This document shows, piece after piece, positions 39,474 through 42,463 of a stretch of 61,734 nt of DNA (the first letter of the stretch is position 1; each line of letters opens with the position of its first letter). Where the stretch lies: assembly GCA_020434345.1 (NCBI GenBank), contig JAGRAZ010000002.1, forward strand, positions 1-61,734. Reading direction: 5' to 3'. Origin of the DNA: Bdellovibrionales bacterium. GTDB taxonomy: Bacteria > Bdellovibrionota_G > JALEGL01 > JAGRMV01. The notes beneath the pieces are model-generated. The model was not told where the DNA came from. It made no database searches and saw only the letters and a program-made list of their open reading frames with translations. The position numbers and the translations under genes were made by a program.

Positions 39474-39866
39474 ATGTGGTTCTGCATTTTACTCACTTTT
39501 ATAAATTTTACTTTTGCCCAGGAGGTAAATGAGCCACTGCCAGAGCCAACCATCATTTTTTCAACCCCGAATGCATCCAATATGGACCTAGAGATGCCTG
39601 AAGAACAACAGGTCGTATTTACATTTGAAGGACAAGACAAACTTCTTGTGCCCAGTCGTGCCACACTCATTTCAGAAAATGGCAAAGAAATTGAGCTTGA
39701 TGCCCAAAAAGGGGTCATCAAAAAAACCCTCCCCTCAAAGCCCTACCTTCTTAAAACTTCCATCAATGGTAAAAAGGACATGACATTTAAAATAGACCTT
39801 TCTAAAAACTTGATGCCACAAGTATTGATAGAACTTTCCATCCCAGCCAAGAAAAAAGTCAAATGA
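39474..39866 (+). CDS. Small secreted beta-rich hypothetical protein (PEGA-like fold possible)
   Basis: Signal peptide ...FTFA|QE, Pro/Glu-rich linker, then predicted beta-strands; sits directly upstream of the kinase. Confidence 0.55.
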   Translation: MWFCILLTFINFTFAQEVNEPLPEPTIIFSTPNASNMDLEMPEEQQVVFTFEGQDKLLVPSRATLISENGKEIELDAQKGVIKKTLPSKPYLLKTSINGKKDMTFKIDLSKNLMPQVLIELSIPAKKKVK

Positions 39867-39913: not shown

Positions 39914-42463
39914 ATGGGTACTTTTTCTCCACAGTTTTTCGGACCATTTTATCTGATTCGCCAAATCGGCAAAGGCGGAACAGCGGAAGTTTTTTTGGGT
40001 GTTGTCACGCAGTCATTTGATGAAAAAAATCCTCGAAAATCAATGTATGCCATTAAGAGACTGTTGCCCACATTATCTACCGAAAAAAGTTTCATTCAGT
40101 GCTTAACAAGTGAAGCCAAACTTGCAAGCCTACTACAACACCCAAATATTGTTTCTGTTTCTGACCTAGGCAATGTTGGAACCGATTACTATGTAAGCAT
40201 GGAGTGGATCAATGGAAAAAGTCTTTTTGACATCCTTAAAAACGTAAAACAGAAAAAGAAAGCCATATCTACTCATTATCTACTACATATCTGCTTTGAG
40301 ATTTCAAAAGGTCTCGATTTTGCGCATCAAGCAAAGGATAGTGTTGGCCGAAGGTTGGACATTGTTCACTGTGACCTTTCTCCGCATAACATTTTGATTA
40401 GCTACAGCGGGAAAGTAAAACTTTCAGATTTTGGCATTGCCACTGCAGCCAAACAAAAAGAACAGATTATTGGTGATACTGTTTTTGGAAAAATTCATTA
40501 CATTTCACCAGAGCAAATTAGCCATAAAGGGTTTGATTATCGTGCCGATATTTATAGTTTTGGCGTCTTGCTTTATGAGTCTCTCACTTTCACAAAACCA
40601 TTTCGATCCAAATCTCAAATTGAGCTCCAACAGATGATTCGAAAGCAACCTCCTTCATTCGATCATCCAGCTTTTAAAGAAAATCCTAAAATCATGGAGT
40701 TTGCCAAAGCTTGTCTTGAAAAAGATGCCAAAAACAGACCCAATAGCCTTAACGAGTTTCAGGACTTGTATCTAGAAACACATCAAGAACATCAAGTTGA
40801 TGCTAAAAAAGTGGGCCGATTAATGCAGCATCTTTTTAAAAATGTCATTTTTGAAGAAAAAGCCCATTTAAAAAAATCCATAGAAAACTTGAAGGCTGCT
40901 ATAAAAAGAAAAAGTGATCAAGAAGACAAACTTGAATCTCTGAGGCAGCATGATCGCGTAGATAAAACAGAAATACTACCACAGGACCCTTCTGAAGGTG
41001 AAACCAAAGTCTTGTTCAAAGAAGACAGCAAGGAAGGACTGGGCAAAGTCGCACTTGAAAAAAAGAAAGTAATACGTGTCATACCCAAAATACCAATTGT
41101 AGAAGAAGTCTCTGCCCCTCCTCATGCACCTCCATCAAATGATGATGAGAGCATCGACGGCGAAGTAGATGCAAATTTATTTGATGTAGAAGGTGATTCC
41201 CTTACAGATGATCCGCTTCAAGCAAATGTAGATCTAGGTGAATTTAAACAAAATACTGACTTTGATGACGATGAAGAAACATATGTTTCAACAATCAAAG
41301 AAAGAAAAGAACCAAATAAACCTACTTTTCAAGAAAGTGATGACGAGTTTCCTAAAGACTATCAAACAGCAAAACTTGCAGCACCTGCTCCTGAATCTAC
41401 AAAAGAATCATTTAATATGTTTAACACTGTTCCTGAAGGCAACACTTCGGTTTTGAATAATGATAGCATCCCAGATTATTTGGTAGACAGACCTGATGCC
41501 ACAGTTGAAGCCAATCAAAAAACTGTTGAAGCCAACATTCTAGACAGTCCATATAGTAGTGAGGTCTTTTACCAAAGTGAGCAAGCGCCTATTGACCTTC
41601 AAAAAAAAGAAGTACATTTTACCAACAGCCTTAAGCCCATCACTTCCTTTCCCAATGAGGACACATTTAACTTTTCTATTCCAAAATCTTGGATACGACT
41701 TGGTATACCATTTTTACTAATGTTTGCTGTTATCTATCTTGGCGTAAAACTAATCAGAGATTACAAACTATTTCAAAACAATGCACCAATACACAATATT
41801 CAAATTTTTGTTTCTTCCGAAAGCGATGGTATTGAATTTTTTCGTTCAGATCAAACAACACTACAACCAGAATGGTTTCAAACAAAGATTGTGCAACCCG
41901 CAATGCATTTTCTGGATCAAGAATATCGTTTTTATCAAAATCAAGCCTTAGATCTACAGGTGACAACATTACAAATAAAAGCTTCGGATCCGCTTATTTT
42001 AGAAGAAAGTTTTTTAAAACCGTACCAAACGTATAATCAGCTTTTTTCAATTTTTCAAATTCCAGAAGAACAACATCAAAAAGATGATGCTCGACTTTTT
42101 GTTCATCTTTTTCATATGAAAAACGAACACCGAATGTATCCATTTCAGTTTTCAGGTAGATCTCCAGCGCATCAACACTTAACTTTTTTACCCATTAACC
42201 AAAGTATCAACGAAACACAAGTTATGCTTGTACATCAAATCCTTCGTTTAATGGGGGCCAAAGTATTAACCAGTACAAAAGGTCACCCACTCTTCCCTGA
42301 AGGCTATGCAGACCCAACACAAAAACCACTTCATCCACAAAGCAAAGGCGAAATCATGACATTAATGATTCCACAATCACCGACTGAATCATACCTACTT
42401 GACGATCTTTCGTTTGCCAAAGTGGGCAAGTCCACTGCAAAACAAATTGGTTGGGCTAAATAA
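39914..42463 (+). CDS. Hanks-type Ser/Thr protein kinase with acidic linker, one TM helix and an extracytoplasmic domain
   Basis: IGKGGTAEVF, AIKRL, SEAKL, HCDLSPHN, SDFGIA, GKIHYISPEQ, DIYSFG; TM LGIPFLLMFAVIYLGVKLI at about 41700-41757. Confidence 0.93.
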   Translation: MGTFSPQFFGPFYLIRQIGKGGTAEVFLGVVTQSFDEKNPRKSMYAIKRLLPTLSTEKSFIQCLTSEAKLASLLQHPNIVSVSDLGNVGTDYYVSMEWINGKSLFDILKNVKQKKKAISTHYLLHICFEISKGLDFAHQAKDSVGRRLDIVHCDLSPHNILISYSGKVKLSDFGIATAAKQKEQIIGDTVFGKIHYISPEQISHKGFDYRADIYSFGVLLYESLTFTKPFRSKSQIELQQMIRKQPPSFDHPAFKENPKIMEFAKACLEKDAKNRPNSLNEFQDLYLETHQEHQVDAKKVGRLMQHLFKNVIFEEKAHLKKSIENLKAAIKRKSDQEDKLESLRQHDRVDKTEILPQDPSEGETKVLFKEDSKEGLGKVALEKKKVIRVIPKIPIVEEVSAPPHAPPSNDDESIDGEVDANLFDVEGDSLTDDPLQANVDLGEFKQNTDFDDDEETYVSTIKERKEPNKPTFQESDDEFPKDYQTAKLAAPAPESTKESFNMFNTVPEGNTSVLNNDSIPDYLVDRPDATVEANQKTVEANILDSPYSSEVFYQSEQAPIDLQKKEVHFTNSLKPITSFPNEDTFNFSIPKSWIRLGIPFLLMFAVIYLGVKLIRDYKLFQNNAPIHNIQIFVSSESDGIEFFRSDQTTLQPEWFQTKIVQPAMHFLDQEYRFYQNQALDLQVTTLQIKASDPLILEESFLKPYQTYNQLFSIFQIPEEQHQKDDARLFVHLFHMKNEHRMYPFQFSGRSPAHQHLTFLPINQSINETQVMLVHQILRLMGAKVLTSTKGHPLFPEGYADPTQKPLHPQSKGEIMTLMIPQSPTESYLLDDLSFAKVGKSTAKQIGWAK

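What the first reader, a model, noticed from the sequence alone, without database searches (positions are those of the whole stretch)
41760..42463. Ser/Thr kinase fused to a catalytically dead HExxH-metallopeptidase-like sensor
Seen: the extracytoplasmic C-terminus reads LVHQILRLMGA...GHPLFPEGYADPTQKPLHPQSKGEIMTLMIP.S...VGKSTAKQIGW. From recall, this tracks an uncharacterised standalone proteobacterial family (AHELLHT.GATDKY...P.FP.GYAEP...P.YPQ..AEIMAGRIP.S...IG..TA.EIGW), but its HExxH zinc motif is here HQILR. Inference: a pseudo-protease repurposed as a receptor domain that could sense peptides or prey-envelope fragments. I do not know of a description of this kinase architecture.
Basis: partly seen in the sequence, partly recalled or inferred. 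Interest (0 to 1): 0.7.

Follow-up and report, generated by a model that had tools for sequence, protein, structure and literature searches.

The report
Kinase with dead metalloprotease-like sensor domain
A membrane-spanning bacterial Ser/Thr kinase carries, on its outer side, a domain with the fold of ADAM-type zinc proteases that has lost its zinc site. Sister species keep the intact site at the same locus, so a protease module appears to have become a pure receptor.

Summary
Window 39914-42463 (+) encodes an 849-aa Hanks-type Ser/Thr kinase: kinase domain, about 300 aa of acidic linker, one transmembrane helix, then a 235-aa C-terminal ectodomain.

- **Homology:** the ectodomain is homologous (hhalign 99.8%, E 3.6e-30) to a large family that has no match in Pfam or NCBIfam. 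The family consensus is HExxHxxGxxD...PQxxAEIM...TAxEIGW.
- **Fold:** AlphaFold models of the window domain (pLDDT 86.6) and of a free-standing intact member (93.6) both match only adamalysin/ADAM/fragilysin metzincin catalytic domains in Foldseek.
- **Dead site:** the window reads HQILRLMGAKV. The catalytic Glu and two of three zinc ligands are gone, while the methionine is kept.
- **Still constrained:** the C-terminal half of the domain is as conserved as the kinase domain.

Loss of HExxH is not general among kinase fusions. About half keep the full motif, including a same-family genome (G010); an intact same-order copy (G006/L003) lies between the same flanking genes as the window's. The dead state arose several times inside one kinase-linked clade.

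Best reading: a receptor kinase whose pseudo-metzincin cleft binds a periplasmic peptide or protein ligand. The ligand is unknown. This is a new variant of a known kind, of moderate interest.

The parts
39914..42463 (+). Whole gene: 849-aa receptor-type Hanks Ser/Thr kinase with a pseudo-metzincin ectodomain
   Evidence: ORF list and translation. It is the only copy of the ectodomain in the 1.8-Mb genome and one of 12 Pkinase hits (11 above the Pfam cut-off) in it.
39956..40750 (+). Cytoplasmic protein kinase domain (residues 15-279). Motifs read directly: GKGGTAEV, YAIK, HCDLSPHN (a non-RD catalytic loop), DFG, SPE.
   Evidence: Pfam PF00069 E 2.7e-44, 152 bits against a 31.7-bit cut-off. NCBIfam PknB-type kinase E 4.5e-62 over the kinase part only. 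Motifs.
40784..41689 (+). About 300-aa acidic, low-complexity juxtamembrane linker (residues 291-592)
   Evidence: No family hit. It is the least conserved long region: 51% identity to P0005 and 26% to P0007, against 79% and 60% for the kinase domain.
41690..41755 (+). Single transmembrane helix WIRLGIPFLLMFAVIYLGVKLI (residues 593-614)
   Evidence: Translation. A hydrophobic-window scan finds such a helix a short way (about 20-50 residues) upstream of the domain in almost all kinase-fused relatives scanned.
41756..42460 (+). Extracytoplasmic metzincin-like domain (residues 615-849), catalytically dead
   Evidence: AF2 pLDDT 86.6, pTM 0.87. The Foldseek PDB top 50 are 49 adamalysin/ADAM/fragilysin catalytic domains plus the O-glycopeptidase OgpA; best hit E 1.1e-4, probability 1.0. 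hhalign to the intact family 99.8%, E 3.6e-30.
42233..42265 (+). Degenerate zinc-binding motif HQILRLMGAKV, in place of the family's HExxHxxGxxD (Glu to Gln, second His to Arg, Asp to Val)
   Evidence: Translation. Column-by-column alignment with more than 100 family members. It lies at the end of the predicted helix 151-165, followed by the conserved Gly.
42335..42409 (+). PQSKGEIMTLMIPQSPTESYLLDDL: the conserved PQxxxEIM block holding the family's near-invariant Met (presumed Met-turn), followed by a stretch that is nearly invariant in the dead clade
   Evidence: Translation. P194, Q195, E199 and M201 are invariant across live and dead members. Positions 198-215 are invariant in all five dead-clade sequences except position 211.

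Best explanation
The gene encodes a single-pass receptor Ser/Thr kinase. The Hanks-type kinase domain and a long acidic linker lie in the cytoplasm. The C-terminal 235 residues lie in the periplasm and have the fold of a metzincin (ADAM/adamalysin-like) zinc peptidase. The parent family carries HExxHxxGxxD plus a conserved Met. The window's lineage has replaced the catalytic Glu (Gln), the second zinc His (Arg) and the third ligand Asp (Val). It therefore very probably binds no catalytic zinc and cleaves nothing. It nevertheless keeps the rest of the cleft region, including the Met block and the segment after it, under constraint as strong as on the kinase domain. The inferred mechanism is that the former substrate cleft now acts as a binding site for a periplasmic peptide or protein segment. 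Occupancy would change the oligomeric or conformational state of the ectodomain and, through the transmembrane helix and linker, the activity of the cytoplasmic kinase, as in other receptor Hanks kinases. Shown: the architecture, homology, predicted fold, loss of catalytic residues, conservation, and descent from fusion proteins with an intact motif. Inferred: lack of zinc and catalysis, ligand binding at the cleft, and coupling to kinase activity. The identity of the ligand is unknown.
For: The kinase domain scores above the Pfam cut-off and has all catalytic motifs. One transmembrane helix separates it from the C-terminal domain. Homology to the HExxH family: phmmer gives 354 hits and hhalign gives 99.8%, E 3.6e-30. 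Fold: AF2 pLDDT 86.6 (window) and 93.6 (live free-standing member). The Foldseek top 50 for the window model are 49 ADAM/adamalysin/fragilysin catalytic domains plus OgpA; the live member's top 50 are ADAM/adamalysin/fragilysin domains apart from two chains of a chaperone-substrate complex (6o38). Probability is about 1.0 for the top hits and target-normalised TM reaches 0.57. The order of secondary-structure elements matches the metzincin layout, with the motif at the end of the third long helix and Gly right after it. The only PDB sequence-profile hits are snapalysin, over exactly this strand-helix-motif region, though at a non-significant E of 0.25. Dead site: HQILRLMGAKV against HELLHTLGATD. 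Constraint: the ectodomain C-half is 78% and 65% identical to P0005 and P0007, against 79% and 60% for the kinase domain and 51% and 26% for the linker. Gln161 and Arg164 are invariant in all five dead-clade sequences. Ancestry: 12 of 17 genomes of the phylum have exactly one copy, nearly all in 640-940-aa frames (two lie on truncated or unresolved loci). A same-family genome (G010) and four same-order genomes keep HExxH. The intact copy in L003 lies between nuoA and the phosphoribosyltransferase gene, as in the window. In the tree, the window clade (SH-aLRT 99) nests inside a 100-supported clade with live kinase fusions. Precedent: catalytically dead ADAM22/23/11 act as receptors for LGI proteins (PMC11266112), and PASTA kinases sense muropeptides through their ectodomain (PMC5786024).
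Against: No coordinates could be inspected, so the geometry of the former zinc site and the openness of the cleft are unverified. Foldseek TM-scores are moderate (0.45-0.57) with large rmsd (about 6 A), so similarity is at superfamily level only. No member of the family, live or dead, has been tested biochemically, so even the parent family's peptidase activity rests on the motif and the fold. No ligand, phosphatase, FHA partner or conserved neighbour gene points to a pathway. The upstream secreted 130-aa ORF is not conserved. In ADAM22 the ligand binds a surface away from the pseudo-active site (PMC11266112), so binding at the cleft is not guaranteed. The genome is a metagenome-assembled draft, about 89% complete by the tool's estimate, and expression is unknown.
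Confidence: 0.62

Rival explanations
1. The dead domain is a structural or anchoring module rather than a ligand sensor. It would hold the kinase at a periplasmic structure (peptidoglycan, an outer-membrane protein, a cell pole or the septum), or mediate constitutive dimerisation, without transmitting a signal.
For: The strong conservation fits any protein-protein interface equally well. ADAM22 uses a surface outside the pseudo-active site and acts largely as a scaffold (PMC11266112). The kinase has a non-RD (HCD) catalytic loop; from general knowledge, such kinases often do not depend on activation-loop phosphorylation.
Against: The most invariant stretch of the dead clade is the segment around and just after the Met block, next to the old active-site helix. 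This suggests the cleft region itself is the functional surface. Receptor-type topology with a variable ectodomain is the usual sensor layout of Hanks kinases (PMC6213207).
Confidence: 0.2
2. The domain is still an enzyme. It would keep hydrolytic activity with a different metal site or mechanism, using His160 together with other conserved residues such as Glu199 or His193.
For: His160 is kept in four of five dead-clade sequences. Glu199 is invariant across the whole family. His193 (PLHPQ) and His141 are invariant in the dead clade.
Against: Three of the four canonical residues are replaced (the catalytic Glu and two of the three zinc ligands), one by a bulky cationic Arg that is likely to occupy the metal position. 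P0007 has also lost the first His (NQILR). Other kinase-fused dead lineages lost different residues: both His in the RExxF, RExxK and RQxxS variants. This pattern suggests repeated relaxation of catalysis rather than a new common mechanism.
Confidence: 0.06
3. The resemblance to metzincins is superficial. On this view the family is a non-peptidase alpha/beta domain that happens to carry an HExxH-like helix, and 'dead protease' is a misnomer.
For: There is no significant sequence or profile hit to any named peptidase family. TM-scores are only about 0.5.
Against: Two independent models (dead and live members) retrieve almost exclusively the same superfamily among their top 50 hits, at probability about 1.0 for the top hits. 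The family has the extended HExxHxxGxxD motif, with Gly ending the helix and a near-invariant Met about 30 residues on. The only sub-threshold profile hits (snapalysin, M6 and M7 models) fall on exactly that motif.
Confidence: 0.07
4. The ectodomain is a decaying relic with no function, and only the kinase is selected.
For: Catalytic residues are lost.
Against: The C-half of the ectodomain is as conserved as the kinase domain across genera, and much more conserved than the linker. 63 columns are invariant among five sequences that are 41-57% identical overall. The frame is intact in every genome.
Confidence: 0.03

Closest known systems
Adamalysin/ADAM (MEROPS M12B) metzincin catalytic domains, and in particular the catalytically inactive ADAM22/ADAM23/ADAM11
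   Same: They are the best structural matches of both models. They share the strand-helix order, the active-site helix ending in Gly, and a conserved Met downstream. ADAM22 is a membrane protein whose dead metalloprotease-like domain serves as a receptor for LGI1 (PMC11266112), which is the same functional logic proposed here. ADAM7 likewise shows a Glu to Gln change (HQLGH, PMC11266112).
   Different: There is no detectable sequence similarity (8-13% identity in the structural alignments). The third ligand in the family is Asp rather than His. There is no pro-domain, disintegrin or Cys-rich module. The organisms are bacterial, and the domain is fused through a transmembrane helix to a cytoplasmic Ser/Thr kinase, which ADAMs lack. 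TM-scores are only about 0.5.
Snapalysin (M7) and other 'Asp-zincins' with HEXXHXXGXXD
   Same: They share the extended motif HExxHxxGxxD (defined in PMC3890501). The family profile's only PDB sequence hits are snapalysin 1c7k and 4hx3, over the strand plus motif helix. There are weak Pfam M7 and NCBIfam snapalysin hits.
   Different: All these hits are non-significant (E 0.07-0.26). Snapalysin is a 132-134-aa secreted enzyme, whereas this domain is about 230 aa with an ADAM-like N-terminal subdomain. The window's copy lacks the motif altogether.
Receptor-type Hanks kinases with extracytoplasmic sensor domains (for example PrkC/PknB/StkP with PASTA repeats)
   Same: They share the kinase, juxtamembrane linker, single transmembrane helix and extracytoplasmic domain topology. 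The ectodomain is thought to bind a ligand and modulate the kinase (PMC5786024, PMC6213207, PMC12077195).
   Different: The ectodomain is unrelated to PASTA or to any other sensor domain in Pfam or NCBIfam. The NCBIfam PknB_PASTA model matches only the kinase part and scores far below its cut-off (210.8 against 450 bits).
The free-standing ~257-aa 'hypothetical protein' family of Gammaproteobacteria, Magnetococcales and Desulfobacteraceae genomes
   Same: It is homologous over about 190 columns, with the same PQxxAEIM and TAxEIGW blocks. An N-terminal hydrophobic helix indicates it is also extracytoplasmic.
   Different: These proteins keep HExxHxxGxxD (83 of 91 non-kinase representatives), have no kinase, and form the sister group of the kinase-linked clade in the tree.

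Membership tests
Hanks-type (eukaryotic-like) Ser/Thr protein kinase | Pkinase fold detected above the curated threshold | tested here: met
   PF00069 scores 152 bits against a 31.7-bit cut-off, E 2.7e-44, over residues 15-279.
Hanks-type (eukaryotic-like) Ser/Thr protein kinase | Catalytic motifs: Gly-rich loop, VAIK Lys, catalytic-loop Asp and Asn, DFG, APE-like | tested here: met
   GKGGTAEV, YAIK, HCDLSPHN, DFG and SPE are read in the translation. The loop is HCD (non-RD) and has Ser in place of the usual Lys of DLKPxN, as in its relatives.
Metzincin / Asp-zincin metallopeptidases | Zinc-binding consensus HExxHxxGxx(H/D) | tested here: not met
   The window reads HQILRLMGAKV. The parent family meets the feature (HELLHTLGATD; 94 of 115 representatives intact). 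The window's domain is therefore a homologue but not a functional member.
Metzincin / Asp-zincin metallopeptidases | Conserved Met (Met-turn) beneath the metal site | tested here: inconclusive
   A Met (M201 of the domain) is invariant or nearly so across live and dead members, 31 residues after the third-ligand position.
Metzincin / Asp-zincin metallopeptidases | Catalytic-domain fold: mixed beta-sheet, backing helices, active-site helix, irregular C-terminal subdomain ending in a helix | tested here: met
   AF2 element order is E14-22, H38-61, E68-77, H89-100, E111-119, E140-146, H151-165, then an irregular stretch and H225-230. The Foldseek top 50 are metzincin catalytic domains except OgpA; top hits have probability 1.0, E down to 1.1e-4 and target-normalised TM 0.53-0.57. 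A live member gives almost the same list.
Metzincin / Asp-zincin metallopeptidases | Zinc binding and peptide-bond hydrolysis | not testable with these tools
   This needs purified protein. From the residues, the prediction is negative for the window and positive for live relatives.
Named Pfam/NCBIfam kinase sensor or peptidase families | A significant HMM match of the ectodomain | tested here: not met
   No family at E<=10 for the window's domain. No relevant family for 35 members at E<=0.01. Live members give only motif-level hits to the M6 domain model (best E 1.3e-4, far below its cut-off), the M7 Pfam model and snapalysin (E 0.07-0.26).

The most novel reading that the evidence does not exclude
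The ancestral protein, still present in sister genera, would be a bifunctional 'protease-kinase' receptor: an active periplasmic metzincin wired through one transmembrane helix to a cytoplasmic Ser/Thr kinase, so that engagement or cleavage of a periplasmic substrate is reported directly as phosphorylation. The window's lineage, and at least three or four others, would then have independently converted this enzyme-receptor into a pure binding receptor. That would be a bacterial parallel to the evolution of ADAM22-type pseudo-peptidase receptors, with a natural series of live and dead orthologues at one locus on which to test it.
Probability: 0.3. Interest if true: 0.75.

Novelty: new variant of a known kind. 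Interest (0 to 1): 0.55.

Why it matters
The ectodomains of bacterial Ser/Thr kinases are the least understood part of these signalling proteins, and only a few sensor types (PASTA and a handful of others) have a known ligand. This work defines a sensor module that matches no Pfam or NCBIfam model.

- It belongs to a sizeable family (354 hits at E<=1e-3 among 50%-identity representatives) of apparently uncharacterised metzincin-like proteins.
- It is fused to a kinase in a small Bdellovibrionota-related phylum.
- Loss of the catalytic site is strongly enriched in the kinase-fused branch: 13 of 24 against 8 of 91.

Live and dead orthologues sit at the same locus in related genomes. This gives a natural experiment on how an enzyme becomes a receptor, and a defined set of constructs for testing it. 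It would also justify a new family entry for the free-standing proteins.

Tried and rejected
- **Sequence libraries:** Pfam, NCBIfam and PDB sequence searches with the window's domain alone gave nothing. A family profile against PDB gave only non-significant snapalysin hits.
- **Locus search:** The search for related loci with the broad alignment A1 failed because no block was conserved enough. The narrower A2 worked.
- **Upstream ORF as partner:** I tested whether the secreted 130-aa ORF just upstream (39474-39866) is a conserved partner or ligand. It is not. The only other hit is a weak one in the same genus, on a different contig from that genome's kinase gene, and it has no Pfam hit.
- **Non-RD loop:** I tested whether the HCD catalytic loop tracks loss of the zinc site. 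It does not, because live P0008, P0009, P0012 and P0014 are also HCD.
- **Gene neighbourhoods:** a naive ORF scan of free-standing members in high-GC loci was too noisy to interpret, and I did not pursue it.
- **Earlier notes:** earlier findings of this scan held nothing on this gene or domain.
- **dN/dS:** I did not attempt it, because synonymous sites are expected to be saturated at 41-60% protein identity.
Full report
**1. What is in the sequence**

Window 39914..42463 (+) is one 849-codon ORF.
- Residues 15-279 are a protein kinase domain: Pfam PF00069, 152 bits against a 31.7-bit cut-off, E 2.7e-44. The NCBIfam PknB-type model matches the kinase part only.
- The catalytic motifs can be read directly: GKGGTAEV, YAIK, HCDLSPHN, DFG and SPE.
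- About 300 acidic, low-complexity residues follow, then a single hydrophobic helix, WIRLGIPFLLMFAVIYLGVKLI (residues 593-614).

With the kinase in the cytoplasm and one membrane pass, this last domain must lie outside the cytoplasm.

**2. The recalled family is real**

The 235-aa domain alone has no Pfam, NCBIfam or PDB sequence match. An exhaustive phmmer search of 1.84 billion cluster representatives found 354 proteins at E<=1e-3 and 43 at E<=1e-10. They fall into three groups:
- 690-880-aa proteins, in which the domain is C-terminal, a hydrophobic helix lies a short way upstream, and the N-terminus is a kinase domain;
- a large group of about 250-290-aa proteins;
- a group of about 380-420-aa proteins.

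A word-indexed search with the family profile returned 308 more clusters of about 257 aa. Where named, all are 'hypothetical protein', none has a precomputed Pfam domain, and they come from Thiotrichaceae, Methylophaga, Methylococcaceae, Oceanospirillaceae, Methylophilaceae and 'Deltaproteobacteria'. Genome loci add Steroidobacteraceae, Magnetococcales, Nevskiaceae and Desulfobacteraceae.

A profile of the window's own clade aligns to a profile of 38 free-standing members with hhalign probability 99.8%, E 3.6e-30, over 193 columns. VHQILRLMGAKVLTS is placed on AHELLHTLGATDKYD.

**3. What fold it is**

The family motif is the extended HExxHxxGxxD, the 'Asp-zincin' consensus shared with snapalysin (PMC3890501). 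It is followed about 30 residues later by a near-invariant Met within PQxxAEIM.

At sequence level there are only sub-threshold matches, and all fall on the motif: snapalysin 1c7k and 4hx3 at E 0.25, Pfam M7 at E 0.26, NCBIfam snapalysin at E 0.07, and the M6 domain model at E 1.3e-4 but far below its cut-off.

Structure prediction is clearer.
- The window's domain, with a 35-row alignment, gave mean pLDDT 86.6 and pTM 0.87. The element order is strand, long helix, strand, helix, strand, strand, helix 151-165, then a long irregular but confident C-terminal part ending in a short helix. HQILR sits at the end of helix 151-165 and the conserved Gly167 directly after it, as in metzincins.
- Foldseek against the PDB returned 349 matches at E<=10. 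Of the top 50, 49 are adamalysin, snake-venom metalloproteinase, ADAM10/17/22/33 or fragilysin catalytic domains, and one is the O-glycopeptidase OgpA. The best hit has E 1.1e-4; the top hits have probability 1.0 and target-normalised TM 0.53-0.57.
- A free-standing live member (P0058; pLDDT 93.6) retrieved the same superfamily, led by TACE/ADAM17 at E 2.5e-5; only two chains of a chaperone-substrate complex intrude in its top 50.

The similarity is at superfamily level only: about 10% identity and rmsd about 6 A. I could not inspect coordinates. I therefore treat 'metzincin-like fold' as well supported, and 'Met-turn under the site' as likely but unverified.

**4. The site is dead here, but not in all kinase fusions**

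In the window the four key positions read His, Gln, Arg and Val, where the family has His, Glu, His and Asp. The neighbouring DKY is also gone (KVLTS).

The same state (HQxLR or NQILR, with Val or Ile at the Asp position) is found in its four closest relatives: P0005, P0007, L001 and L002/P0006. Gln161 and Arg164 are invariant among them, which looks like a re-used site rather than a drifting one.

Across the representatives of at least 200 aa:
- 13 of 24 kinase-fused proteins have a degenerate site;
- 8 of 91 proteins without a kinase do;
- Fisher P = 4e-6. This is not corrected for phylogeny.

The other 11 kinase fusions keep HExxH plus Asp or Glu. Loss is enriched there, but it is not a rule.

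**5. Evolutionary setting**

The window's genome is a 1.82-Mb draft, 88.6% complete. Its phylum-level group has only 17 species genomes in the collection. NCBI titles of relatives read Bdellovibrionota, Bdellovibrionales or Deltaproteobacteria.
- Twelve of the 17 genomes have exactly one copy of the domain, nearly all in 640-940-aa frames; the copies in G003 and G009 lie on truncated or unresolved loci.
- The copy is dead in the window, in its congener (G011), in one other genus of the family (G008) and in a distant family (G001).
- It is intact in another genus of the same family (G010, HEMLH..GAKD), in four genomes of the same order (G002, G004, G005, G006) and in G016.
- Gene order is shared. 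The window has nuoA(-), a small ORF, the kinase(+), a phosphoribosyltransferase(-) and glutamate dehydrogenase(+). L002 (G008) has the kinase, the phosphoribosyltransferase and glutamate dehydrogenase. L003 (G006, intact HEILH) has nuoC and nuoA(-), an ORF, the kinase, an ORF and the phosphoribosyltransferase(-).

These are therefore orthologues, and the fusion predates the loss.

A quick maximum-likelihood tree of 126 domains puts all kinase-linked domains on one side of a branch (SH-aLRT 94). The few short 'non-kinase' rows inside that clade look like gene fragments; for example, P0006 is the truncated call of the L002 gene. The window's clade (support 99) nests inside a 100-supported clade with the live P0008 and P0009. 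Dead forms appear in at least four or five separate places and by different routes, for example RExxF, RExxK and RQxxS variants that keep the Asp.

**6. Is the dead domain functional?**

Identity between the window protein and two dead-clade relatives:

| Region | P0005 | P0007 |
|---|---|---|
| Kinase domain | 79% | 60% |
| Linker | 51% | 26% |
| Ectodomain, C-terminal half (old active-site helix to the end) | 78% | 65% |

Sixty-three columns are invariant among the five dead-clade sequences. These include almost all of GEIMTLMIPQSPTESYLL, directly after the Met. In metzincins this region contributes to the primed side of the substrate cleft; that statement comes from general knowledge, and its placement here is an inference. 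The conservation rules out a decaying relic and points to the former cleft region as the functional surface.

**7. Mechanism proposed**

I propose a receptor kinase in which the pseudo-metzincin cleft binds a periplasmic peptide or an extended protein segment without cutting it. Binding would alter ectodomain association or conformation and thereby kinase output, by analogy with PASTA kinases (PMC5786024, PMC6213207). A second analogy is the dead ADAM22/23/11 domains, which serve as receptors for LGI proteins (PMC11266112).
- Shown: architecture, homology, predicted fold, residue loss, constraint and ancestry.
- Inferred: absence of zinc and of catalysis, binding at the cleft, and signal coupling.
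- Unknown: the ligand and the kinase's substrates.

No conserved partner gene is evident. The upstream secreted 130-aa ORF is not conserved. The genome gives 12 Pkinase hits, so this is one receptor among several.

The rivals are a scaffold or anchoring role, residual enzymatic activity, a fold misassignment, and a functionless relic. They are weighed in the rival section.

**8. Comparison with what is known, and novelty**

The protein is a member of the Hanks kinase family. Its ectodomain is a homologue of a metzincin-like family that has no Pfam or NCBIfam model, but it fails the defining zinc motif, so it is a pseudo-peptidase.

Full-text searches found no description of a bacterial Ser/Thr kinase with a metzincin-like ectodomain. 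A 2024 review of metallopeptidase pseudoenzymes mentions bacteria or prokaryotes only in passing (two occurrences of each term) and, in the passages retrieved, links no pseudo-peptidase to a bacterial kinase. This absence of evidence is limited to the open-access library and to the libraries' release dates. MEROPS and InterPro could not be queried.

I class it as a new variant of a known kind: a receptor Hanks kinase with a new sensor module, and a pseudo-peptidase used as a receptor. Interest is moderate. It would be higher if the live orthologues prove to be active protease-kinases.

Noticed in passing
window 39474-39866 (+): A 130-aa ORF with a signal-peptide-like N-terminus lies 48 nt upstream of the kinase gene on the same strand. 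It has no Pfam hit. The only other match is a weak one (E 1e-4) in the congeneric genome, on a different contig from that genome's kinase gene. It is therefore not a conserved partner of the kinase.
   Followed up: partly
window 40385-40420 (kinase catalytic loop, residues ~158-169): The catalytic loop is HCD (non-RD) with DLSPHN instead of DLKPxN. HCD is shared by part of the clade, both live and dead forms, while other relatives have HRD, HKD or HQD. It does not track loss of the zinc site.
   Followed up: yes
P0081, P0100, P0113 (metagenomic proteins, 315-428 aa): A separate, well-supported clade of non-kinase proteins also has a degenerate zinc motif (HYVTR, NLISR, VAIAR). In P0100 there are weak N-terminal matches to a ribosomal L7/L12 C-terminal-like domain and a B-box/treble-clef zinc finger. 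This may be a second case of the dead domain attached to a cytoplasmic signalling module.
   Followed up: no
L035:3374-4636 and L044:3485-5044: In two gammaproteobacterial loci the open frame of the free-standing HExxH gene runs on into an ABC-transporter ATPase-like sequence (GRNGAGKSSLL). Other loci show FecCD-type permease and GGDEF-like genes nearby. Whether the free-standing family is linked to an ABC transporter was not examined.
   Followed up: no
own genome G000 (1.82 Mb, 144 contigs): There are twelve Pkinase matches (11 above the Pfam cut-off) in a genome of about 2 Mb, an unusually high density of Hanks kinases for this size. The phylum-level group has only 17 species genomes, of 1.4-3.1 Mb.
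   Followed up: partly
G013, G014, G015 (family f4 of the same order): Three genomes that are 90-97% complete lack the domain altogether. The kinase-metzincin gene therefore seems to have been lost, or never gained, in that family.
   Followed up: no
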